Positions 5,920 through 15,668 of a stretch of DNA of 32,000 nt are shown piece by piece. Below the pieces are notes generated by a model. The model did not search any database, had not been told where the DNA came from, and worked only from the letters and a program-made list of their open reading frames with translations. Position 1 is the first letter of the stretch; each line of letters opens with the position of its first letter. The translations under genes were made by a program, and so were the position numbers. This DNA is from Mycolicibacterium smegmatis (GTDB taxonomy: Bacteria; Actinomycetota; Actinomycetes; Mycobacteriales; Mycobacteriaceae): assembly GCF_001457595.1 (NCBI RefSeq), contig NZ_LN831039.1:2340001-2372000 (forward strand), written 5' to 3'.

Positions 5920-5956
5920 TTGACCCTCACGCGGCGTGAGGCGCCAGCCTTGTCAC
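5920..5956 (+). promoter_or_regulatory. MerR-type promoter/operator. Candidate -35 TTGACC (5920-5925), 19-nt spacer holding the palindrome CCTCACG-cgg-CGTGAGG (5925-5941), candidate -10 CAGCCT (5945-5950), then ATG 6 nt downstream (leaderless-like)
   Basis: Read directly. A dyad inside an over-long 19-nt spacer is the hallmark of MerR/TipA-type autoregulated promoters. A -10 element 6 nt before the start codon fits a leaderless mycobacterial mRNA. The -10 matches TANNNT only at A2 and T6. Confidence 0.45.
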
Positions 5957-6748
5957 ATGACGCAGGAGTTGCCGGTGGAGGAACTCACGGTCGGTGAGGT
6001 CGCCAAGCGATTTCGCATCACGGTGCGCACCCTTCACCACTACGACGAGATCGGGTTGCTGAGCCCCAGCCGGCGTGTGACCTCGGGTTACCGGGTCTAC
6101 ACGCCGGCCGACCTGACACGGCTGTCGCAGATCATCGTGTACCGCCGGCTCGAGTTCTCGCTCGACGAGATCGCGAGCCTGCTCGACGAGGGTGATGCGG
6201 TCAGCCACCTGCTCCGTCAGCGAGAACGCGTCATGGCACGCCTCGGCGAGATGAAGGACCTCGTCGCGGCCATCGATCAGGCATTGGAGAAGGCGATGAC
6301 CAACACCCCCATGACCGACGACGACATGCGTGAACTGTTCGGCGAGGGCTTCGACGACTACCAGGCCGAGGCCGAGCGCAAGTTCGGTGACACGGCCGAG
6401 TGGAAGGAATCCCAGCGGCGGACGAAGTCCTACAGCAAGGGGCAGTGGATCCAGCTCAAGGACGAGGGGGAAGCGGTGGAGAAGGCCCTGGCGGACGCCT
6501 TCCGAGGTGGGCTCGCACCCGACTCCGAAGTGGCCATGGACGCCGCCGAACAGCACCGGCTGCACGTGAACCGCTGGTTCTACGACTGCCCGCCCGATTT
6601 TCACCGCAAGCTGGGCGACATGTACGTCAGCGACCCGGCGTACGTCGCACGGTACGACGAATCCTTCGGGCTTCCCGGACTTGCCGCGTTCTGTCGCGAC
6701 GCCATCCATGCGAACGCCGACCGTGCGGGCGGCGATGTGACCGGCTAA
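5957..6748 (+). CDS. MerR-family transcriptional regulator with a TipAS-like C-terminal effector domain (263 aa)
   Basis: N-terminal HTH LTVGEVAKRFRITVRTLHHYDEIGLLSPSRRVTSGYRVYTPADLTRLSQIIVYRRLEFSLDEI. C-terminal HRLHVNRWFYDCPPDFHRKLGDMYVSDPAYVARYD...AAFCRDAI resembles TipAS/Mta-type antibiotic-recognition domains. Confidence 0.85.
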   Translation: MTQELPVEELTVGEVAKRFRITVRTLHHYDEIGLLSPSRRVTSGYRVYTPADLTRLSQIIVYRRLEFSLDEIASLLDEGDAVSHLLRQRERVMARLGEMKDLVAAIDQALEKAMTNTPMTDDDMRELFGEGFDDYQAEAERKFGDTAEWKESQRRTKSYSKGQWIQLKDEGEAVEKALADAFRGGLAPDSEVAMDAAEQHRLHVNRWFYDCPPDFHRKLGDMYVSDPAYVARYDESFGLPGLAAFCRDAIHANADRAGGDVTG

Positions 6749-7398
6749 TCGGTGCCGGGGGAGCGCCGCATGGATTCGCGTGCGAGGAACTCGCGGAAGT
6801 AGTCGAGGGATGCGGGCTCGACCAGGGCCGGCAGCAGCAGGTCCCAGGTGCGGACGAGGCGTTCGCGAAGATCCGTGCCGGACGTGCCTGCACGGGTCAG
6901 CGCCTCGGCGCCGAGCAGCGCCGACAGGACCACGTCGGCCACGGCCCCGGGATCCAGACCTTCACGCAGGTCACCTTCAGCAGCGGCGCGGTGTAGCTGT
7001 GCCGAGATCGCATCGAGCCAGCTCGCATACACGCGTGCGGTCGTGTCGTTGATACCCGCGAAGGTCTGCAAGAGGTGAAGGCCGATGTCGGCGACCCGGT
7101 CGGTGCGGGTGAAGTCGCACACCACGAACAGTCCGTGGATGAGGTTCTCCAGCGCCGGGGACGACGTTTCGGTGATGTTCTGGAAGGCCGCGAGCATGCT
7201 TGCCCCACTTTCGGCGATGATGGCCTCGGCGAGGGCCTCCTTGGAGTCGAAGTGGTAGTACAGCGCACCCTTGGTCATGTCGGCGCGCTCGATGATCTCG
7301 CCCAATCCGGTTGCCGGATAGCCGATTTCAGCGAAAAGGTCGACGGCGGCGGTGATGATCTTGCGTCGGGTGACACCGGCGCGGGCTTGACGTGCCAC
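6745..7398 (-). CDS. TetR-family regulator, ScbR/ArpA-like (autoregulator-receptor-like) subtype, 217 aa
   Basis: MARQARAGVTRRKIITAAVDLFAEIGYPATGLGEIIERADMTKGALYYHFDSKEALAEAII aligns by eye almost residue-for-residue with the N-terminus I remember for ScbR (MAKQDRAIRTRQTILDAAAQVFEKQGY...ITEIL..AGVTKGALYFHFQSKEELA). GTG start 7398 lies 6 nt after the upstream TetR stop. Confidence 0.9.
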   Translation of the reverse strand: MARQARAGVTRRKIITAAVDLFAEIGYPATGLGEIIERADMTKGALYYHFDSKEALAEAIIAESGASMLAAFQNITETSSPALENLIHGLFVVCDFTRTDRVADIGLHLLQTFAGINDTTARVYASWLDAISAQLHRAAAEGDLREGLDPGAVADVVLSALLGAEALTRAGTSGTDLRERLVRTWDLLLPALVEPASLDYFREFLARESMRRSPGTD

Positions 7399-7404
7399 GA
7401 GCGG

Positions 7405-8106
7405 TCACGCCGATCCGGCGCGCGTGTGCGCCGGTGGTTCGGGATGCAGCGGGACGGCCTTGCGCGCCGTCAACGTGGTGCGGCGGCGGATGAACTGCCG
7501 CAGGTAGCCCAGCCGGTCGGGGTTGGCGATGCCCGGCAGTACGAGCTGCCAGCTGCGCTCCAGGTCCTGCAGGAACCGTTGTGGATCCTCCAGTTCGCTG
7601 GTCTGGCGGACGCCCAGGTACAGCGACACCAGCAGCCGGGCCACGACGTCCGGGTCGCTGTCTGGGGTGAGATCACCCTCGGAGACGGCGCGGCGGCCGA
7701 TCGCGGAGAAGCGCGCGACCCAGTCCGTGACAACCTTCGCGCCGAGGTTCTCGGTGCGTCCGATCGATTCGATCAGGTTGAGCCCGGCACGCGTCATCGG
7801 GTCGCTGACGTCGTCGACCGCGAGTTGGTAGCTGATGTCGATGAGGGTCTCGAGGCCGGACAGATTGCGCGCGGCGACGTCCTCGGTGGTGTCGCGGGCC
7901 TGCGCGGCGTGGTACTCGACGATTGCGCAGGCCAGCGCGTGCTTGGAGCGGAAATGGAAGTACAGCGCCCCCTTGGTCACCTGGGCGTCGGCGAGGATGT
8001 CATCGAGGCTTACCAGGCTGTACGGGGTGCGCGCGAACTGCCGCGACGCGGCCTGCAGGATCTGGAGCCGGGTGAGGTCTGCTCGGCGGTCGAGCTGCTC
8101 AGTCAC
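7405..8106 (-). CDS. TetR-family regulator, paralogue of the adjacent one (ScbR/ArpA-like subtype), about 233 aa
   Basis: VTEQLDRRADLTRLQILQAASRQFARTPYSLVSLDDILADAQVTKGALYFHFRSKHALACAIV. The start is taken as GTG 8106 (GAGG 7 nt upstream, N-terminus matches family length). GTG 8109 and ATG 8136 are alternatives. The rest of ORF 7405..8289 is low-GC and not protein-like. Confidence 0.8.
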   Translation of the reverse strand: MTEQLDRRADLTRLQILQAASRQFARTPYSLVSLDDILADAQVTKGALYFHFRSKHALACAIVEYHAAQARDTTEDVAARNLSGLETLIDISYQLAVDDVSDPMTRAGLNLIESIGRTENLGAKVVTDWVARFSAIGRRAVSEGDLTPDSDPDVVARLLVSLYLGVRQTSELEDPQRFLQDLERSWQLVLPGIANPDRLGYLRQFIRRRTTLTARKAVPLHPEPPAHTRAGSA

Positions 8107-8344
8107 CACACAACCTCGGAATCTGCAGGATCGCATCGTCGGGCGTACGTCTTCTGGCAAACGCGCGTACGTCAATTGTTCCATCAGGAAATTCCCATAC
8201 CGAGGCGGCGCTGACCGTGTCTTGATGTCGGTTCTCCGATCCGCCGCGATTCGCGAATACTTGAAGTCACCAGTAGGCGTGCGGATCATTCTATCGGTAT
8301 GTATTCTGCTTTATGTGATAACTCCGGGTTCGCCGTTGGTGGAC

Positions 8345-8675: not shown

Positions 8676-9503
8676 ATGTGGGACGACGAACTCGATGTCG
8701 TTTGCTGTGGATCCGGTTCCGGGGCGTTTGCCGCGGCGATCGCAGCGGCCGACGCCGACCTTGACGTAGAGGTCGCCTGCCGGCCCGTTACCCCGCAGGG
8801 AACTTCCGGGTCGCCATGGCTCGGCCGCGGCATCGAAGATTCCGAGACCAGGGAGTATCTCGACGAACTCGTGGCGGACCAGGATCCGTCTTCGCGCGAC
8901 TCCGAGCACGCCGACATCGAGATCCGTGCCATGAGGCAGCTGTCGCCCGCGGCGCCGAGGACGCCTGTCGAGACCTTTCACGGCGCCCAGTTGCGGGACT
9001 GGGCCGGGCAGTGTCTGCGGTCGCCGTACGGCCTGCTGTATACCCGCCTCACCGAGCGCGGGGGCGTCCCGATGGAGACCGAGGCCGGCGAGATCATCGA
9101 GGCGAACGTGCTGGGGTCCATCGACCTCCCGGCGGGGGCCGGTGCCGCAGCGGCGGTCGACGGGTGGATGCGGATGCAGCTCCGTGAGCGCGACATCCCG
9201 AGCGACGACGACGCCGCGCTGGAACGGATCGTGTTCGAGGAGGGCGAGATCGTCGGTGTGGCGCTCGCGACAGCCGACGGTCCGCGCACCGTACGGGTGC
9301 GGCACGGCATCGCAGTGTCCACCGAGGTGCCCGCCGCCGGCCGACGGCGTATGGAGACCGCCCAGACGCTGCGGGTGGCGCTCGTGGGGCGAAGCGCCAG
9401 CAGGTTCAGCAGGGTGGAGTTGCTGACGATCCCGTCCGCTGGTCATCCCGACGATCTCGCGCAGGGCAACGGGGCGCCGCACTCACATGCGAGGCGCAGC
9501 TGA
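8676..9503 (+). CDS. Hypothetical protein with an N-terminal Rossmann-like dinucleotide-binding motif (275 aa)
   Basis: MWDDELDVVCCGSGSGAFAAAIAAADADLDVEV is a beta-alpha-beta GxGxxG/A-like start, as in FAD-dependent oxidoreductases. Codon third positions are GC-rich as in neighbouring genes. I recognise no further motifs. The 3' end overlaps the convergent GGDEF-EAL gene by 21 nt. Confidence 0.6.
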   Translation: MWDDELDVVCCGSGSGAFAAAIAAADADLDVEVACRPVTPQGTSGSPWLGRGIEDSETREYLDELVADQDPSSRDSEHADIEIRAMRQLSPAAPRTPVETFHGAQLRDWAGQCLRSPYGLLYTRLTERGGVPMETEAGEIIEANVLGSIDLPAGAGAAAAVDGWMRMQLRERDIPSDDDAALERIVFEEGEIVGVALATADGPRTVRVRHGIAVSTEVPAAGRRRMETAQTLRVALVGRSASRFSRVELLTIPSAGHPDDLAQGNGAPHSHARRS

Positions 9504-11333
9504 GAAGTGCACCGGCACACGGCCTTTGGCAAGAAGGGTCTGCATCTCACTGCCCAGGATGGGTTTGGACAGCAGGAACCCCTGCGCGCGGTAACACCCG
9601 TGGCGCAGCAGGGTGAGCGCGGCGCGCTCGGTCTCCACGCCCTCGGCCACCAGTTGTAGTCCGAAGGCCCCCGCCAGCGCGATCACGGCCCGCACGATCG
9701 GAAGGTCGCCCGGGTTGGAGCCCAGTTCGGCCACGAAGCTGCGGTCGATCTTCAGCGTGTCCACCGGCAGTGATTTCAGCAGCGACAACACGCTGTAACC
9801 GGTGCCGAAATCGTCGATGGCCACCTGGACGCCGACGTTGTGCAGACCCGTCAGCGTGGTGCGGGTGGTCTCGATGTCCTGCACCACAACGCTTTCGGTG
9901 ATCTCCAGACACACCGACCCGCGCGGCAGACCGAACTCTTTCATGATGCCCGCCACCGACTCGACGAATCCGTCGGTCACGAGCTGGACCGGTGAGACGT
10001 TGATCCGCAAGACGATGTTGCGGCCCACGCCGTTGGCCCGCCACCGGGAGAACTCGGCGCATGCCGTGCGCAGCACCCACCGGCCCAGTTCCCCTGCGAG
10101 GTTGATCGATTCGGCCACGCCGATGAACGAGTCGGGCGACAGCAGGCCGCGGGTGGGATGCTCCCAGCGGACCAGCGCTTCTGCCGCCAGCACCTCACCG
10201 GTGCGCATGTCGATTTCCGGCAGGTAGTGCAGCACCAGTGCGCCGCCTTCGATCACGCTCTGCAGGTGCAGTTCGATGTCGTTGCGGAAGTCGATCTCCA
10301 TGGCCATCGCGTCGGAGAAGACCGCGACGCGGTTGCCGCCGGAACCCTTGGCCGTCAATACCGCGTGGTCGGCCCGGTTGAGCACGTCGGACGTTGAATC
10401 CTTACCCGGAATGCCTTGTGCGATACCGATGCTCACGGTTCGAGTGAGCATCTCACCGTCGACGGTGACGCGTTCGCGCAGCACCGACTGCAGCCGGTAG
10501 GCCAGCGCGGTGGCCTCATCCAGCGACATGGGATCGTCGGGGACGACGACGAACTCGTCGCCGCCGAGGCGCGCTATCAGCTTCGGAGCGTCGTCACCGC
10601 GTTGCAGTCGCTGCGCGAGGATGCTGATGAACGCGTCACCCGCGGTGTGACCCAGGTAGTCGTTGATCGCCTTCAGCCGGTCCAGGTCGAAGAACATCAC
10701 CGCGACCGGACCGGGTTGTCCCGGAGCGAGTCTCGCTTCCAGGTGCGCCATCAGGGCGCGACGGTTGTACAGGCCGGTCAGGTGATCGTGGTCGGCCAGG
10801 TAACGCAGGCGTTCCTCGGCCTCGATCCGGGCCTGCACCTGCGCGAACAACGACGCGATCGCCTTGAGCGCGTTGAGTTCTGCGGGCAGCCACTCGCGGT
10901 CGCCGAACTTGACGAAGCCCAGCACACCGGTCGTGACGTCGCCGCTGAGCAGCGGGACGCACGCCATCGACGTGGCGGGGATGTGCCGGCCTGCCACGTC
11001 GATGGTGCGCTGATAGTCGTCGTAGAGCGGTTCGGGCCGGAACACCGCGGGTTCCTTGAGGTGTTCGGCCATGGCGAACACCGGGTCGGCATCGGCGAAG
11101 TGGACGACGGCGATCGGGTCGGTGGCGGCGTCGACCGGACGCGGCGGCCACTCGGCGACGAGCCTCGTGGCGTGGGCGCGGTGGTCGTTGTGGCGCAGGA
11201 AGCTCACATCGACATCGAAGAACGACACCAGTTCGGCGAGCACCTGCTGGCTGACCGACACCGAGGTGGCCGCCTCGACTGCCATGAGCTGAGTGGCGAC
11301 GGACGTGACCAGCACGTCCAGGCTCTCGGACAC
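9483..11333 (-). CDS. dcpA: Bifunctional c-di-GMP enzyme, GAF-GGDEF-EAL architecture (616 aa)
   Basis: GGDEF domain: DHLTGLYNRRAL...FFDLDRLKAINDYLGHTAGD...ARLGGDEFVVV. EAL domain: AAEALVRWEH...NVSP...LEITES...IDDFGTGYS..LK.LPVDTLKIDRSF...AEGVET...GC...QGF. About 190 aa of GAF-like N-terminus. The start is set at GTG 11333, which has GGAGG 7 nt upstream and lies after the upstream gene's TAA. ORF 9483..11618 would otherwise overlap that gene by 256 nt. The size matches the ~615-aa M. smegmatis DcpA / Rv1354c family as I recall it. Confidence 0.9.
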   Translation of the reverse strand: MSESLDVLVTSVATQLMAVEAATSVSVSQQVLAELVSFFDVDVSFLRHNDHRAHATRLVAEWPPRPVDAATDPIAVVHFADADPVFAMAEHLKEPAVFRPEPLYDDYQRTIDVAGRHIPATSMACVPLLSGDVTTGVLGFVKFGDREWLPAELNALKAIASLFAQVQARIEAEERLRYLADHDHLTGLYNRRALMAHLEARLAPGQPGPVAVMFFDLDRLKAINDYLGHTAGDAFISILAQRLQRGDDAPKLIARLGGDEFVVVPDDPMSLDEATALAYRLQSVLRERVTVDGEMLTRTVSIGIAQGIPGKDSTSDVLNRADHAVLTAKGSGGNRVAVFSDAMAMEIDFRNDIELHLQSVIEGGALVLHYLPEIDMRTGEVLAAEALVRWEHPTRGLLSPDSFIGVAESINLAGELGRWVLRTACAEFSRWRANGVGRNIVLRINVSPVQLVTDGFVESVAGIMKEFGLPRGSVCLEITESVVVQDIETTRTTLTGLHNVGVQVAIDDFGTGYSVLSLLKSLPVDTLKIDRSFVAELGSNPGDLPIVRAVIALAGAFGLQLVAEGVETERAALTLLRHGCYRAQGFLLSKPILGSEMQTLLAKGRVPVHFSAAPRM

Positions 11334-11362
11334 CGGATCACCTCCACTTGAGCTCAGCCCTG

Positions 11363-13534
11363 TTACGACGTCCTGACCCCCTGGAGGGCTCGGCGCCGGC
11401 TCCGTATCGACGGGCGTGGCGCGAAGAAGAATCTGAGCACCAACGCCTGCGATTCGTCGCGATCGGTCGTCGTCACCTGGCGAAAAGCGTACTGCAGGTC
11501 CCGCAGTCTCATCGCGTGGCCCGCCGAGAGTTCCTGCAGTTCGCCGTCGTTGTGTGCGTACAGGAACACCGGCGACACCGGCTGCACAGAGACACCGTGC
11601 TGCTGCGCGGCGACCCACACGGCTTCGACCGCGCTGCCCGCCTGTGCGTAGTCGGTGAGCCTGCGACCCCGGATGGAGACGACCGCGAGCGCCGAGCTGG
11701 ACGTCACGCGCTCGTAGGTGTCGTCACCCAGTGCCGATCCGCTGCCCCAATCGGCGAGCTTGTCCATCACCTCGGGGCGACGCAGGATGTCGAGGACCAC
11801 GATGTCGGTCTCGTCGAGACCGAGCGTGGTGATGTCGATCCCGGTGTCGGGGTCGGGGTCTCCTGGCCAGCGCAGCTCCGAGATCATCTGGCGGTGCAGC
11901 GTGGGCGTCAAATACCGGATGCGATCGGTTTCGGCGAGAATCCTTGCCGCGGAGTCCATTTCGGAACGATCGCTCAGTACCGTCAGGCGGGCGCCTTCGC
12001 GCTGTGCCGCGGTGTGTAGTGCCTGCAAGACGTCGGCCGGGATAGGTTCGGCGTCGCCGCGCAACCGGTTGGTCTCGCGCTGCAGCATGGGCTCGTAGAG
12101 TGCGGCCGACTCGGGATCCGAGCCGGGGGTCAACGGCAGTGTCGCGAACAGCGGCGTGCCCTCGTCGCCGCGGGACCACTCGACGCGAGTCCTCAGCCCG
12201 TGCGCGGCGGCCGCGACGCGGGCGTTGAAGGCGGCCGCGCCGAGCGCCACGGCGCTGCCGCGGTAGCCGACATCCATCGCCGAGGTGTATTGCGTCAGCA
12301 GCCGCAGGCTGACCCGGTCACGGTCGACCTTGATGTCCCAGGGCTGGACGTTGCCGCCCGAGGGGGCGCGAGAGGTGGCGTGCGCGATGATGCCGGGCAC
12401 GTCGGCGGGGGCGGCCTGCGATTGTTCGTGCAGCACCGGCGCGGGCCGCGGCGGTGTGTCGAGTGGGTCGTCGATGCCGTCGAGTGTGCTGCCGATGTCG
12501 ATGCGCACCCGGCCCGACGCCAACGGTTCGCCGAGGCCGATGCGCCGGACGGCGTCGGCGACGACGGTCGCGCCGAGGACGACCTCGGACGCCAGTTGCG
12601 GCCAGGTGGTGAGGGTCTTGCCGACCTCGACGAGGGACGCGGCCATCCGGGCGGACAACTGGGGGGCGTCGAGGATGCGCAGGACATGGGGCACCTTGTC
12701 CTTGCTCGACAGACCCGCCAGCCGCGCCGCGTCGATGTCACCGACCAGGCCGTGCAGGATGGGACGACCGGGATCGAGGTCGAAGCGTTCCACGTCGAGC
12801 AGGCCGCGGTCGGAGGTGGCCATCAGCACCGGAAGCTTGCGCGCCCGCGCAGCCTCGCGGACGAGCACTTTCGCGTCGAGAGAGTCGCATTCCTCGACGA
12901 CGACGTCCAGACCGTCGAGGAACTCACCGAGTGATTCCGGTTGCGCACCGCCGAGATCGACCCGCACGCGCAGGTACGGATCGATCTCGGCGATCCTGCG
13001 TGCGGCGACCACCGCCTTGTTGACCCCGAGATCGAACACCGTGCCCGGTACCCGATTCAGGTTAGGCAGCTCGATCTCGTCGAAATCGGTCAGCCGCAAC
13101 TCTCCGCACAGCCCCTCGACCGCGAGGTTGTGGGCGATCGCGTGGCCCACGCTCAGGCCGATCACCCCGATCCGCAGATCTGACAGACGCTGCTGCTCGT
13201 CGGCGCTGATGAGGTTGCGGTTGCGGTCGAGCCGCAGCCGGTGGAACGCGCGCGGGCCGACCAGGTGCACCACACAGCGCCGCCACGGGTAGTACGCCCA
13301 GGTCGTCGGTTCGGCGAGCAGGTCCGGTTCCACCGCCGGAACCAGGCTGCGCAGGGCTTCCTGTTGTTGTCGACAGTCGTCGATCACCGTGATCCGGGCG
13401 TCGGCACGCAGCTGCGCGAGCGCGTCGCGTCCGGCGTCGGTGTCCGGGTCGATGATGACGGCAGTACAGGCGGAGTCGTCGTCAGCGGGAGAGCCGGTGG
13501 GAGAGAGGTTGAATCGGTGGTCGTCTGAGATCAT
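11363..13534 (-). CDS. moeY: Rv1355c (MoeY)-family protein: ThiF/E1-like adenylation domain fused to nitroreductase-like (SagB/McbC-type) domains, 723 aa
   Basis: E1-like core: RIGVIGLSVGHAIAHNLAVEG...LRLTDFDEIELPNLNRVPGTVFDLGVNKAVVAARRIAEIDPYLRV...VVVEECDSLDAK. C-terminal half: HATSRAPSGGNVQPWDI... and a second related segment ...AVWVAAQQHGVSVQPVSPVF, typical of FMN nitroreductase-fold domains. ATG 13534 overlaps the upstream stop (ATGA). Confidence 0.85.
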   Translation of the reverse strand: MISDDHRFNLSPTGSPADDDSACTAVIIDPDTDAGRDALAQLRADARITVIDDCRQQQEALRSLVPAVEPDLLAEPTTWAYYPWRRCVVHLVGPRAFHRLRLDRNRNLISADEQQRLSDLRIGVIGLSVGHAIAHNLAVEGLCGELRLTDFDEIELPNLNRVPGTVFDLGVNKAVVAARRIAEIDPYLRVRVDLGGAQPESLGEFLDGLDVVVEECDSLDAKVLVREAARARKLPVLMATSDRGLLDVERFDLDPGRPILHGLVGDIDAARLAGLSSKDKVPHVLRILDAPQLSARMAASLVEVGKTLTTWPQLASEVVLGATVVADAVRRIGLGEPLASGRVRIDIGSTLDGIDDPLDTPPRPAPVLHEQSQAAPADVPGIIAHATSRAPSGGNVQPWDIKVDRDRVSLRLLTQYTSAMDVGYRGSAVALGAAAFNARVAAAAHGLRTRVEWSRGDEGTPLFATLPLTPGSDPESAALYEPMLQRETNRLRGDAEPIPADVLQALHTAAQREGARLTVLSDRSEMDSAARILAETDRIRYLTPTLHRQMISELRWPGDPDPDTGIDITTLGLDETDIVVLDILRRPEVMDKLADWGSGSALGDDTYERVTSSSALAVVSIRGRRLTDYAQAGSAVEAVWVAAQQHGVSVQPVSPVFLYAHNDGELQELSAGHAMRLRDLQYAFRQVTTTDRDESQALVLRFFFAPRPSIRSRRRALQGVRTS

Positions 13535-14313
13535 TGCCCCGCCGCAGTAGTGGAATCGGTGTCGTCGGCCACGCCAAGCCGGGGTGTGATCCGCTGCGAC
13601 TCGGCGAAGTAGGCCGAAAGCTGCTTCGGATCAGCGTGATTGGCAAATGTACTCCGATCCCACCACATCATCTTGGTCTGGTACCGCGCATCGGGGTACG
13701 GCGTCGCCGGGATCTTGGTGGCGAGCACGCCTCCGGAGGACAACCACCGCTTGAGGACGTAGGCTGCCGCCGTGGCCATCGCGAACTGAATGTTGAGCAA
13801 CGTCATGGAATGTAGCGGCATCCTCGCCAGCGTGTCGGTGAGCGCACGGCTCTGCTCCGGGTCGTCGCTGACCCAGGCGGTCTTCATCTCGACCACACCG
13901 AACGGGATGCGGTCGCTCACCATTTTGCGGACGGCGTCGAGGCCGGGTTGACCACTCCATTCGACAATCGCATGGCTTTCGTCGGCGTTTCGGTACGGTC
14001 CCTTCGCCCGCAGGCCGCCGACAACCCGACCGGCGTCATTGATCCCCGCGCAGAACAATGCGGTGTCGGTACCGGTGCGCAAGGCCTGCATATCGAGCGC
14101 GCACTCGACGCCGTGTTTCCGGTAGTTGCGCTCGGCGCCCCGGACGTATTCGTGCCACAGTTCCCGTTCGGCTCCCGGGTCGGCGACCACGATGGTGCAT
14201 TCGCTGGTGGGGTCCCACCAACTGTGGCTCTTGGCAAGCGAGAGGTCCGAGTGGTCGGAGGCTTCGAGTCCAGCAAGGGTCATGTCGGTGTCCATTTCTA
14301 CGGTCGGCCGCAC
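13531..14313 (-). CDS. Conserved hypothetical protein (Rv1356c-like position), up to 260 aa; start uncertain
   Basis: Long ORF with GC-rich third positions, first gene of the operon. Candidate starts are GTG 14313 (GGGAGG immediately adjacent), ATG 14295 and ATG 14283. The pattern ...ALFCAGINDAGRVVGGLRAKGP...GVVEMKTAWVSDD... weakly resembles GNAT/LuxI-fold acyltransferases. Confidence 0.7.
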   Translation of the reverse strand: MRPTVEMDTDMTLAGLEASDHSDLSLAKSHSWWDPTSECTIVVADPGAERELWHEYVRGAERNYRKHGVECALDMQALRTGTDTALFCAGINDAGRVVGGLRAKGPYRNADESHAIVEWSGQPGLDAVRKMVSDRIPFGVVEMKTAWVSDDPEQSRALTDTLARMPLHSMTLLNIQFAMATAAAYVLKRWLSSGGVLATKIPATPYPDARYQTKMMWWDRSTFANHADPKQLSAYFAESQRITPRLGVADDTDSTTAAGQ

Positions 14314-14433
14314 CTCCCGCGTGGTACGGCTAAATCGGGCTTACGTTGCGTCGGGACGCGAATACGCGACATGAGTATCGCGCCGCTTGCCACTCAAATT
14401 CCAGCGAGCCGAGAAAGATCGTGAACCGGGGTA

Positions 14434-14612
14434 TGCAATTTAGTTCGTCATACCGCACTTACTCGCCAGTAGCTGCAAATTTGGCAAATTCGTTCGCAAT
14501 GGAAAAAAGGTGTTTGAACCGCTGAAAGGTGGGTATAGCAAATATCTTTATTGACGCGCTCGTGAATCGTGTACGCACGCGCAAGTTTGATCAGATTTGC
14601 CGTCAGGGCAAT
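14434..14612. promoter_or_regulatory. AT-rich island in the divergent promoter region, with seven GCAAT/GCAAAT motifs
   Basis: GCAA(A)T at 14435, 14475, 14484, 14496, 14538 and 14608, plus ATTTGC at 14595. The perfect palindrome CAAATTTG lies at 14476-14483. A rough count expects fewer than one occurrence by chance in about 180 nt. The island sits between the minus-strand operon start (14313) and purU (14778). Confidence 0.35.
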
Positions 14613-14777
14613 CGTTCGGACTTGTGCGGTGTTCACATGGGCGAACGCCGAACATCGGACGAGCGGCCTCCCGGGCCTGTTCCCGGGGCCCCGCATCGAG
14701 GCCTCGGGGCACGGATCGAGGGCTCGGATGGGGCCGGTGTCGCGGCCGGGAAACCGGCCGGTGACAATCTCCTGGTG

Positions 14778-15668
14778 ATGGCGCAGGAGTATCCGAAGGC
14801 GAACGCTCTACCGGCTCAGGACGTGGGCCGGTTGTTGCTGCGTTGTGCTGATCGCCCCGGACTGGTGGCGGCGATCAGTGGCTTCCTGACCGCCGCGGGC
14901 GCCAACATCGTGTCGCTGGATCAGCACTCCACCGAGCAGGCCGGCGGCACGTTCATCCAGCGCACGATCTTCCATCTGCCCGGGCTCACCGCGGTGCGCG
15001 ACGAACTCGAACGGTCTTTCCGTGAGCAGGTGGCGGGTCCGTTCGAGATGGACTTCACCCTGACCGAGGCGGCCAAACCCAAGCGGGTGGCCCTCATGGC
15101 GTCGCGCGAGGACCACTGCCTTCTGGACCTCCTGTGGCGCAACCGGCGCGGCGAACTGCCCATGTCGGTGGTGATGGTGATCGCCAACCATCCCGATCTG
15201 GCCGAGCAGGTGCGCGCGTTCGGGGTGCCGTTCATCTACGTCCCGGCGACCAAGGAGAACCGCGCGGAAGCCGAGCAGCGCCTGCTCGAGTTGTTGCGCG
15301 GCAACGTCGATCTCGTGGTGCTGGCGCGTTACATGCAAATCCTCACCCCGGAGTTCCTCGACGCCGTCGGCTGCCCGCTGATCAACATCCACCACTCGTT
15401 CCTGCCTGCGTTCATCGGTGCGGCGCCGTACCGGCGCGCCAAGGAGCGCGGCGTCAAACTGGTCGGCGCGACAGCGCATTACGTGACCGAGGATCTCGAC
15501 GAGGGGCCCATCATCGAGCAGGATGTGGTCCGCGTGGATCACCGGCACACCGTCGAGGATCTCGTTCGCCTCGGCGCCGACGTGGAACGGCTGGTGTTGT
15601 CGCGAGCGGTCCTGTGGCACTGTGAAGACCGCGTGATCCGGTTCGGCAATCAGACCGTGGTCTTCTGA
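14778..15668 (+). CDS. purU: Formyltetrahydrofolate deformylase (296 aa)
   Basis: N-terminal ACT domain GRLLLRCADRPGLVAAISGFLTAAGANIVSLDQHS...GTFIQRTIFHLPGL. Formyltransferase core LVVLARYMQILTPEFL......INIHHSFLPAFIGAAPY.RA.ERGVKLVGATAHYVTEDLDEGPII.Q. Start ATG 14778 (GTG 14775 or ATG 14637 possible, but the 14637-14777 stretch has only about 70% GC3). Confidence 0.9.
   Translation: MAQEYPKANALPAQDVGRLLLRCADRPGLVAAISGFLTAAGANIVSLDQHSTEQAGGTFIQRTIFHLPGLTAVRDELERSFREQVAGPFEMDFTLTEAAKPKRVALMASREDHCLLDLLWRNRRGELPMSVVMVIANHPDLAEQVRAFGVPFIYVPATKENRAEAEQRLLELLRGNVDLVVLARYMQILTPEFLDAVGCPLINIHHSFLPAFIGAAPYRRAKERGVKLVGATAHYVTEDLDEGPIIEQDVVRVDHRHTVEDLVRLGADVERLVLSRAVLWHCEDRVIRFGNQTVVF

What the first reader, a model, noticed from the sequence alone, without database searches (positions are those of the whole stretch)
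11363..13534. E1-like adenylation domain fused to tandem nitroreductase-fold domains: RiPP-like 'C plus B protein' logic without a YcaO
Residues of about 110-260 carry the ThiF/MoeB nucleotide-binding core (GVIGLSVGH..., DFDEIELPNLNRV, GVNKAVVAARR). The C-terminal ~340 aa contain two nitroreductase-like segments (SRAPSGGNVQPW... and ...HGVSVQPVSPVF). In thiazole/oxazole-modified microcin pathways, an E1-like docking protein and an FMN dehydrogenase (SagB/McbC type) act with a YcaO cyclodehydratase. Here the first two are fused, and no YcaO or obvious precursor gene is in the window. That suggests a different, uncharacterised chemistry, such as adenylation followed by FMN-dependent oxidation of a carboxylate or peptide C-terminus.
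Basis: partly seen in the sequence, partly recalled or inferred. Interest (0 to 1): 0.6.

Follow-up and report, generated by a model that had tools for sequence, protein, structure and literature searches.

The report
Known tryptazolone synthase gene trzS
This gene is Mycobacterium smegmatis trzS, an enzyme already purified and characterised in 2025: with the acyltransferase gene next to it, it turns tryptophan into small N-acyl oxazolone ("tryptazolone") molecules, so it is a correct observation of a known thing and not a new peptide-antibiotic pathway.

Summary
The 723-aa ORF at 11363-13534 (minus strand) has a ThiF/E1-like ATP-binding domain (Pfam ThiF, residues 103-240). This is followed by an Acg-type single-chain nitroreductase-fold FMN domain (about 379-705).

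It is not uncharacterised. It scores 1057 bits against the NCBIfam equivalog "Rv1355c family protein" (cut-off 476). Kleetz et al. (J Biol Chem 2025, PMC12856293) showed that Rv1355c/TrzS, with the upstream acyltransferase Rv1356c/TrzA, makes N-acyl tryptazolones:
- TrzA N-acylates L-tryptophan.
- The ThiF domain does an ATP-dependent cyclisation to the oxazolone.
- The FMN domain then does an O2-dependent desaturation.

The enzyme they purified was the M. smegmatis one. Their four cloning primers match this window exactly at both ends of both genes. Their three mutagenic primers match except for the designed codon changes, and residues 217, 540 and 651 here are D, R and Q.

The complete genome has no YcaO gene and the ORF has no TOMM-type family hits, so the RiPP framing fails.

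One question remains open. The downstream GAF-GGDEF-EAL c-di-GMP gene is clustered with trzS in 16 of 16 sampled genomes of the order that carry both.

The parts
13531..14295 (-). trzA: tryptophan N-acyltransferase (GNAT / N-acyl amino acid synthase fold), 254 aa from the ATG used in the published construct. The open frame also allows a GTG start at 14313.
   Evidence: The published M. smegmatis trzA primers match exactly at 14274-14295 and 13531-13548. There is no Pfam or NCBIfam hit. The AF2 model (pLDDT 86.8) has FeeM (2G0B) as best PDB match, followed by other GNATs and the CoA-dependent AHL synthase BjaI. A homologue lies directly upstream of trzS in 17 of 19 orthologous loci.
11363..13534 (-). 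trzS: tryptazolone synthase, 723 aa (the finding). Its ATG overlaps the trzA stop codon by 4 nt (ATGA).
   Evidence: NCBIfam NF005901 'Rv1355c family protein' scores 1057 bits against a cut-off of 476, covering residues 17-721. The published trzS primers match exactly at 13511-13534 and 11363-11386.
13235..13474 (-). TrzS residues about 21-100: a small, confidently modelled alpha/beta N-terminal domain of unknown role, with W79, W84 and R85 invariant.
   Evidence: pLDDT is 84-95 over these blocks and the invariant columns are. The protein atlas look-up gave only sub-threshold leads.
12500..13234 (-). TrzS residues about 101-345: ThiF/E1-like ATP-dependent cyclase domain.
   Evidence: Pfam ThiF covers 103-240. 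There are PDB sequence hits to TcdA, ThiF, MoeB and UBA1 and Foldseek hits to AclA 9EGB, PaaA, ThiF, MoeB and TcdA. The ATP-site residues are invariant.
12884..12886 (-). Codon for Asp217 (GAC), the conserved ThiF adenylation-motif aspartate. The published D217A variant lacks cyclase activity.
   Evidence: The mutagenic primer matches 12872-12899 with one mismatch, GAC to GCC. D217 is invariant in 19/19 orthologues. Biochemistry is from PMC12856293.
12401..12499 (-). TrzS residues about 346-378: low-confidence interdomain linker.
   Evidence: pLDDT is below 50 for residues 347-374. The paper also describes a poorly defined linker.
11420..12400 (-). TrzS residues about 379-705: Acg-type flavin-dependent oxidase (single-chain pseudo-dimeric nitroreductase fold), the desaturase.
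   Evidence: NCBIfam NF047509 'Acg family FMN-binding oxidoreductase' covers 385-669. Foldseek hits 2YMV. The purified protein contains FMN.
11915..11917 (-). Codon for Arg540 (CGG). The published R540A variant loses most of its FMN and accumulates the cyclised, saturated intermediate.
   Evidence: The mutagenic primer matches 11903-11930 with two mismatches, CGG to GCG. R540 is invariant in 19/19 orthologues.
11582..11584 (-). Codon for Gln651 (CAG). The published Q651A variant has low FMN content and reduced product.
   Evidence: The mutagenic primer matches 11570-11597 with two mismatches, CAG to GCG. Q651 is Q in 14, H in 4 and R in 1 of 19 orthologues.
9483..11333 (-). Context gene: GAF-GGDEF-EAL c-di-GMP synthase/phosphodiesterase (Rv1354c / MSMEG_2196 type). 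Its probable GTG start is 29 nt after the trzS stop and follows a GGAGG.
   Evidence: Pfam finds GAF, GGDEF and EAL. Literature reports MSMEG_2199-2196 transcribed as a polycistronic mRNA as well as from an internal promoter (PMC5741613). It is clustered with trzS in 16/16 sampled genomes that carry both.

Best explanation
The ORF is trzS of Mycobacterium smegmatis (orthologue of M. tuberculosis Rv1355c, formerly 'MoeY'). It is the second enzyme of the two-gene trzAS pathway for N-acyl tryptazolones. TrzA (13531-14295) transfers a short or medium acyl chain from acyl-CoA to the amino group of L-tryptophan. The ThiF-like domain of TrzS uses ATP/Mg2+ to activate the carboxylate so that the amide oxygen closes the 5(4H)-oxazolone ring. 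The C-terminal Acg-type FMN domain then desaturates the C-alpha/C-beta bond with O2, in that obligate order. The reaction steps are shown experimentally in the literature for this very protein. That the window carries this gene is shown here. The adenylate intermediate itself is inferred from the ThiF family mechanism. The physiological role of the product is unknown.
For: (1) The NCBIfam equivalog 'Rv1355c family protein' scores 1057 bits over residues 17-721, against a cut-off of 476. (2) Kleetz et al. 2025 (PMC12856293) identify Rv1356c as TrzA and Rv1355c as TrzS. Purified TrzS from M. smegmatis is yellow with an FMN spectrum and needs ATP. D217A abolishes cyclisation. R540A accumulates the cyclised saturated intermediate. 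Tryptazolones were detected in wild-type M. smegmatis. (3) All seven gene-specific primers of that paper's Table S2 match the window uniquely. Four are exact at the gene ends and three differ only at the designed codon. Residues 217, 540 and 651 are D, R and Q. (4) The genome is one 6,983,267-bp contig, the size expected for M. smegmatis (my knowledge). (5) The AF2 model matches ThiF-like enzymes and the Acg homologue 2YMV, the same homologues the paper reports. The TrzA model matches FeeM and BjaI, the homologues reported for TyzA. (6) trzA-trzS synteny holds in 17/19 orthologous loci across four families of the order. ATP-site and FMN-domain residues are invariant.
Against: Nothing contradicts it. 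Caveats follow. The strain may not be mc2-155 itself, and I did not compare the full gene with a named record. The acyl-chain spectrum in vivo (C6-C8 in M. smegmatis, C3-C8 when expressed in Rhodococcus) and the biological role are not settled in the literature. The adenylate intermediate has not been trapped.
Confidence: 0.97

Rival explanations
1. One reading: a RiPP/TOMM-like module in which an E1-like docking or adenylating domain and a SagB/McbC-type dehydrogenase act on a peptide or on the C-terminus of a neighbouring protein, without a YcaO.
For: The ThiF-like and nitroreductase superfamilies are the same as those of TOMM C and B proteins. PaaA (a RiPP-modifying ThiF-like enzyme) is among the structural matches.
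Against: No YcaO gene is found in the complete genome (the control genomes ring). No SagB, TOMM or cyclodehydratase models are among the 20 NCBIfam hits at E <= 0.1. The flavin domain is Acg/FDO type, with 2YMV as best match. The conserved partner is a FeeM-like N-acyltransferase, not a precursor peptide. The substrate was shown to be N-acyl-tryptophan.
Confidence: 0.01
2. The legacy annotation ('MoeY'): a MoeB/ThiF-type adenylyltransferase or sulfurylase that activates a MoaD/ThiS-like sulfur carrier for molybdopterin or thiamin synthesis.
For: There are weak sub-threshold matches to MoeB, ThiF and MoeZ models (33-58 bits against cut-offs of 150-650) and a shared fold.
Against: All MoeB and ThiF models are far below their cut-offs. 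There is no CxxC zinc motif in the protein and no rhodanese domain. No MoaD/ThiS-like gene is adjacent. A separate ThiF-family gene exists elsewhere in the genome (L002). The demonstrated activity is oxazolone formation. The 2023 paper states the same misannotation for the paralogue Rv2338c 'MoeW'.
Confidence: 0.01

Closest known systems
TrzS of M. smegmatis and M. tuberculosis (Rv1355c), with TrzA (Rv1356c); Kleetz et al., J Biol Chem 2025, PMC12856293
   Same: It is the same gene. The primers match exactly, the numbering of D217, R540 and Q651 is the same, the upstream trzA is the same, and the downstream c-di-GMP gene is the same.
   Different: Nothing detectable.
OxzB/OxzA of Pseudoalteromonas rubra (de Rond, Asay and Moore; bioRxiv 10.1101/2020.06.11.147165), the first oxazolone synthetase
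   Same: A ThiF-nitroreductase di-domain enzyme paired with an N-acyltransferase. It does ATP-dependent cyclisation plus oxidation of an N-acyl aromatic amino acid to an oxazolone.
   Different: OxzAB uses tyrosine and phenylalanine with longer acyl chains. It falls in a different similarity-network subcluster (subcluster 2 against 1 for the ThiF domain; FDO-A8 against A4) and is proteobacterial.
TyzA/TyzB/TyzC of M. tuberculosis (tyz cluster; TyzB = Rv2338c, formerly 'MoeW'), PMC10404671
   Same: The three activities are the same: acyltransferase, ThiF-like cyclase and FDO desaturase.
   Different: The cyclase and oxidase are separate proteins, the product is N-acyl tyrazolone, and the reaction order is not obligate. 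No tyz-like paralogue was found in this genome with P0001 or P0003 as query.
TOMM / microcin B17 synthetase (McbB E1-like, McbC FMN dehydrogenase, McbD YcaO)
   Same: The superfamilies of two components are shared, and so is the overall logic of making a heterocycle and then oxidising it with FMN.
   Different: TOMM cyclodehydration is done by YcaO on a ribosomal peptide, and the E1-like subunit is a non-catalytic docking protein. Here the ThiF-like domain is itself the ATP-using cyclase, the substrate is a small molecule, no YcaO exists in the genome, and the flavin domain is Acg type rather than SagB type.
Acg family FMN proteins (M. smegmatis MSMEG_5246, PDB 2YMV; Mtb Rv2032, Rv3127, Rv3131)
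   Same: The C-terminal half has the same single-chain pseudo-dimeric nitroreductase fold.
   Different: Those are stand-alone FDO-B proteins not linked to oxazolone synthesis. The TrzS domain belongs to FDO-A4.
TcdA (tRNA t6A cyclodehydratase)
   Same: It is the best PDB sequence match for the ThiF domain (E 2.4e-08). It is also a ThiF-like enzyme that cyclises an activated amino-acid carboxylate rather than transferring it.
   Different: Its substrate is tRNA-borne threonylcarbamoyladenosine, and it has no fused oxidase.

Membership tests
TrzS / Rv1355c family (ThiF-FDO tryptazolone synthase) | Full-length match to the curated equivalog model above its cut-off | tested here: met
   NF005901 scores 1057.2 bits against a cut-off of 476, with residues 17-721 aligned to profile positions 5-718 of 722.
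TrzS / Rv1355c family (ThiF-FDO tryptazolone synthase) | Domain order: ThiF-like cyclase, linker, Acg-type FMN oxidase in one chain | tested here: met
   Pfam and NCBIfam domain hits. The AF2 model has a low-confidence linker at 347-374. Foldseek matches ThiF-like enzymes and 2YMV.
TrzS / Rv1355c family (ThiF-FDO tryptazolone synthase) | Catalytic residues shown by mutagenesis: Asp217 (cyclase), Arg540 and Gln651 (FMN site) | tested here: met
   Residues 217, 540 and 651 are D, R and Q. D217 and R540 are invariant and Q651 is Q in 14/19 orthologues.
TrzS / Rv1355c family (ThiF-FDO tryptazolone synthase) | Operon with an upstream TrzA-type N-acyltransferase | tested here: met
   There is a 4-nt ATGA overlap with the upstream ORF. 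The trzA primers match exactly. The model has a FeeM/BjaI-like fold.
TrzS / Rv1355c family (ThiF-FDO tryptazolone synthase) | Identity with the experimentally characterised M. smegmatis gene | tested here: met
   Seven published primers match uniquely. Four are exact and three differ only at the designed codon. Full-length identity to a named record could not be checked with these tools.
TrzS / Rv1355c family (ThiF-FDO tryptazolone synthase) | ATP- and O2-dependent conversion of N-acyl-Trp to N-acyl tryptazolone; bound FMN | not testable with these tools
   Taken from PMC12856293.
TOMM / thiazole-oxazole-modified microcin synthetase | YcaO cyclodehydratase in the cluster or genome | tested here: not met
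   PF02624 has 0 matches in the complete (100%) own genome, while 5 of the control genomes ring.
TOMM / thiazole-oxazole-modified microcin synthetase | SagB/McbC-type dehydrogenase and TOMM E1-like docking domain by family model | tested here: not met
   None of the 20 NCBIfam hits at E <= 0.1 is a SagB, TOMM or cyclodehydratase model. The flavin half hits the Acg family instead. No McbB or McbC chains appear among the listed Foldseek matches.
TOMM / thiazole-oxazole-modified microcin synthetase | Ribosomal precursor peptide substrate | tested here: not met
   The conserved partner gene is an N-acyltransferase. The published substrate is N-acyl-tryptophan. I did not run a dedicated small-ORF search.
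MoeB/ThiF sulfur-carrier adenylyltransferases ('MoeY' annotation) | Match to MoeB, ThiF or MoeZ equivalog models above cut-off | tested here: not met
   The best is ThiF PRK08644 at 57.9 bits against a cut-off of 159. MoeB models score 40-51 bits against cut-offs of 266-450.
MoeB/ThiF sulfur-carrier adenylyltransferases ('MoeY' annotation) | Zinc-binding CxxC pairs and/or a rhodanese domain; an adjacent MoaD/ThiS-like carrier | tested here: not met
   There is no CxxC in the 723 aa, and the five Cys residues are at positions 23, 54, 87, 143 and 216. There is no rhodanese hit. The neighbours are trzA and the GGDEF-EAL gene.

The most novel reading that the evidence does not exclude
The tryptazolone pathway may be functionally coupled to c-di-GMP signalling. 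In this reading trzA-trzS and the GAF-GGDEF-EAL gene form one conserved module, and N-acyl-tryptophan or the tryptazolone is the (auto)inducer sensed by the GAF domain of the c-di-GMP enzyme, or the reverse regulatory link holds. Support: the gap between the genes is 29 nt. The literature reports a polycistronic MSMEG_2199-2196 transcript. Among 150 other sampled genomes of the order, 16 carry both a full-length TrzS and a full-length DcpA-type orthologue. In all 16 the two lie within 6 kb on the same contig, and in 14 the c-di-GMP gene follows trzS with a gap of 500 nt or less. The 2025 paper only remarks on the adjacency in M. tuberculosis. No binding or regulatory evidence exists.
Probability: 0.12. 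Interest if true: 0.6.

Novelty: already known. Interest (0 to 1): 0.1.

Why it matters
For the scan, this is a true positive for the sequence reading: the architecture was read correctly and the guessed chemistry was nearly right. It carries no novelty, because the enzyme class (oxazolone synthetase), the family (Rv1355c/TrzS) and this very protein are published. It does correct two tempting misreadings, RiPP/TOMM and the legacy 'MoeY' molybdopterin annotation. The only open biology is the unknown role of tryptazolones and their conserved genomic link to the GAF-GGDEF-EAL enzyme, reported to be the only GGDEF/EAL c-di-GMP enzyme of M. smegmatis.

Tried and rejected
- TOMM/RiPP reading: rejected. 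There is no YcaO in the complete genome, no TOMM-type family hits, and the substrate is a known small molecule.
- MoeB/ThiF sulfurylase reading: rejected. All scores are below cut-off, and there is no CxxC motif, no rhodanese domain and no carrier gene.
- A second oxazolone (tyz-like) cluster in the same genome: not found with P0001 or P0003 as query. The only other hit is an unrelated ThiF-family gene at E 6e-6.
- Role of the N-terminal 21-100 domain: the protein-atlas look-up gave only scores of 0.88 or lower (YjjI-like, hypothetical). These are below the level at which hits mean anything, so the result is uninformative.
- Literature on the best structural match, AclA (9EGB): nothing relevant in the held library.
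- Promoter/terminator scan of 9300-14800: no more sites than in shuffles. One promoter-like site inside trzS at 11911-11883 is not distinguishable from chance.
- I did not use the large protein-database searches (search for homologous proteins, representatives). The primer identities had already settled the question.
Full report
**What is there**

The window is high-GC (about 67%). A single 723-codon ORF occupies exactly 11363-13534 on the minus strand.

Pfam places a ThiF domain at residues 103-240 (E 1.4e-23) and gives a weak Nitroreductase match. NCBIfam places the 'Acg family FMN-binding oxidoreductase' model over residues 385-669. The whole protein (residues 17-721) scores 1057 bits against the equivalog NF005901 'Rv1355c family protein', whose cut-off is 476.

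**Neighbours**

- Upstream is a 254/260-aa ORF (13531-14295, or 14313 with a GTG start). It is on the same strand and its stop overlaps the trzS ATG by 4 nt (ATGA). It has no Pfam or NCBIfam hit.
- Downstream is a GAF-GGDEF-EAL protein. Its probable GTG start is at 11333, 29 nt after the stop of the finding and preceded by GGAGG.

**What it is**

A literature search for Rv1355c led to two papers from one group.

- PMC10404671 (2023) showed that the M. tuberculosis tyz cluster (TyzA acyltransferase, TyzB ThiF-like, TyzC nitroreductase-superfamily flavin-dependent oxidase) makes N-acyl tyrazolones. It predicted Rv1355c-Rv1356c to be a second oxazolone cluster.
- PMC12856293 (2025) established that Rv1356c is TrzA and Rv1355c is TrzS. 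TrzA N-acylates L-tryptophan from acyl-CoA. [quoted passage not shown]

The enzyme they could purify was the M. smegmatis one. It was yellow with an FMN spectrum. D217A lost all product. R540A had little FMN and accumulated the cyclised saturated intermediate. Q651A had reduced activity. Tryptazolones (C6-C8) were detected in wild-type M. smegmatis.

The class itself, a ThiF-nitroreductase di-domain 'oxazolone synthetase' paired with an N-acyltransferase, was first described for OxzAB of Pseudoalteromonas rubra.

**Identity with the published gene**

In this ORF, residues 217, 540 and 651 are D, R and Q. I then took the gene-specific parts of the primers in Table S2 of PMC12856293 and searched the window.

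| Primer | Match in window | Mismatches |
|---|---|---|
| trzS forward | 13511-13534 | 0 |
| trzS reverse | 11363-11386 | 0 |
| trzA forward | 14274-14295 | 0 |
| trzA reverse | 13531-13548 | 0 |
| D217A mutagenic | 12872-12899 | 1 (GAC to GCC) |
| Q651A mutagenic | 11570-11597 | 2 (CAG to GCG) |
| R540A mutagenic | 11903-11930 | 2 (CGG to GCG) |

Every match is unique, none is expected by chance, and the mismatches are only the designed codon changes. The own genome is a single contig of 6,983,267 bp, the size expected for M. smegmatis (my own knowledge). A proteomics paper lists MSMEG_2198 as 'ThiF family protein', next to the c-di-GMP gene MSMEG_2196. I conclude that the finding is the M. 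smegmatis trzS gene itself.

**Independent checks of anatomy**

I aligned 19 full-length orthologues taken from genomes of the same order.

- The ATP-site residues are invariant. These are R101/R104/R106 in the N-terminal arginine motif, the shortened glycine loop G126-L-S128-V129-G130-H131, D150/D152, N158-L-N160-R161, K173 and E214-E-C-D217-S.
- In the flavin half, A390-P-S-G-G-N395-x-Q397-P-W399, R425, R486, R490, D537-R538-x-R540, H547 and E553 are invariant.

An AlphaFold2 model built on this alignment has mean pLDDT 82, with a disordered linker at 347-374. Its best PDB matches are:
- AclA (9EGB), PaaA, ThiF, MoeB and TcdA for the first half;
- the M. smegmatis Acg homologue 2YMV for the second half.

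These include the homologues named in the paper (ThiF 1ZFN and Acg 2YMV). The 'two nitroreductase-like segments' are the two halves of this single-chain pseudo-dimeric fold.

The model of the upstream protein (pLDDT 86.8) has the N-acyl amino acid synthase FeeM (2G0B) as best match, and the CoA-dependent AHL synthase BjaI among the top matches alongside other GNATs. The 2023 paper reports FeeM and BjaI as the closest structural homologues of TyzA.

One thing the paper does not discuss: residues about 21-100 form a confidently modelled small alpha/beta domain (pLDDT 84-95) with invariant W79, W84 and R85. I could not assign it a role.

The RiPP/TOMM framing fails its defining tests.
- There is no YcaO in the complete genome, while the positive controls ring.
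- No SagB, TOMM or cyclodehydratase model appears among the NCBIfam hits.
- The conserved partner is an acyltransferase, not a precursor peptide.

The legacy 'MoeY' (MoeB-like) annotation also fails. All MoeB, ThiF and MoeZ models are far below their cut-offs, there is no CxxC zinc motif, and there is no rhodanese domain.

Its refutation criteria (degenerate sites, sulfurylase activity) are not met. Hence the verdict is 'partly supported'.

**Distribution and context**

- In 150 other sampled genomes of the order, 20 have a match to TrzS at E <= 1e-20. Of these, 18 have full-length matches, giving 19 loci in four families.
- A TrzA homologue lies directly upstream in 17 of the 19 loci.
- In the two exceptions (G012 and G089, same genus), trzA lies 5-6 kb away in the same neighbourhood. 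There trzS is flanked by a cytochrome P450 and/or methyltransferases and a TetR gene.
- Full-length orthologues of the GAF-GGDEF-EAL protein (E <= 1e-160) occur in 18 sampled genomes.
- Sixteen of those also carry a full-length TrzS. In all 16 the two genes are on the same contig within 6 kb. In 14 the c-di-GMP gene follows trzS with a gap of 500 nt or less.
- Two genomes (G098, G130) have the c-di-GMP orthologue without TrzS. Two (G004, G085) have TrzS without it.

These genomes are related, so the counts are not independent events. The sample also included one unpublished genome (G007), which enters only the overall GGDEF-EAL tally, and no claim here rests on it.

Literature adds three points. 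MSMEG_2196 is transcribed both as part of a polycistronic MSMEG_2199-2196 mRNA and from its own promoter (PMC5741613 citing Bharati et al. 2013). It is reported to be the only GGDEF/EAL enzyme of M. smegmatis (PMC12632254); my genome search finds this strong GGDEF match plus one weak second match. The 2025 paper notes the adjacency only for M. tuberculosis, as a hint of a signalling role.

**Verdict**

The feature is already known, down to the individual protein. Interest is low (0.1). The one reading with some novelty left is a functional coupling between tryptazolone synthesis and the co-transcribed GAF-GGDEF-EAL enzyme. It is untested, and I rate it at about 0.12.

Noticed in passing
window 9483-14313; loci L004-L024; trzA-trzS and the GAF-GGDEF-EAL c-di-GMP gene form a conserved three-gene block. 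Sixteen of 16 sampled genomes of the order with both a full-length TrzS and a DcpA-type orthologue keep them within 6 kb. In 14 the c-di-GMP gene follows trzS with a gap of 500 nt or less. In the window the gap is 29 nt.
   Followed up: partly
L007:3604-4971 (-), L007:765-1445 (-); L008:746-1432 (+), L008:3642-4517 (-); L027, L029: In two same-genus genomes (G012, G089) the TrzS orthologue (55-57% identity) is not next to trzA. In G012 it sits directly after a cytochrome P450 with a SAM methyltransferase downstream. In G089 it sits next to a TetR gene and a methyltransferase. trzA and the c-di-GMP gene lie 3-6 kb away. These may be clusters for decorated oxazolones.
   Followed up: partly
window 13235-13474 (TrzS residues 21-100): This is a confidently modelled small alpha/beta N-terminal domain with invariant W79, W84 and R85. 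The published description treats the termini as low confidence. Its role is unknown.
   Followed up: partly
L025 (G134:C7), L026 (G124:C42), L022 (G116), L023 (G145): Additional matches cover only the N-terminal domain plus the ThiF half of TrzS (40-57% identity over about residues 23-399). Some have in-frame TGA codons. They may be split (Tyz-like) or decayed versions of the synthase.
   Followed up: no
window 6745-7398 and 7405-8289 (-); 5936-6748 (+): There are two adjacent TetR-family regulator genes sharing the TetR_C_45 C-terminal domain, and a MerR/TipAS-type regulator, a few kb downstream of the trzAS-c-di-GMP block.
   Followed up: no
window 14314-14777: This 464-nt divergent intergenic region between trzA and the purU-like gene (ACT + Formyl_trans_N) has a markedly AT-rich stretch around 14430-14620. 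It is presumably the promoter region for the MSMEG_2199-2196 transcript.
   Followed up: no
G000:C1:2905612-2906079 (outside the window): A second, weak GGDEF match (42 bits) exists in the genome besides the strong one in the window. This is consistent with the literature statement that only one bifunctional GGDEF-EAL enzyme is present.
   Followed up: no
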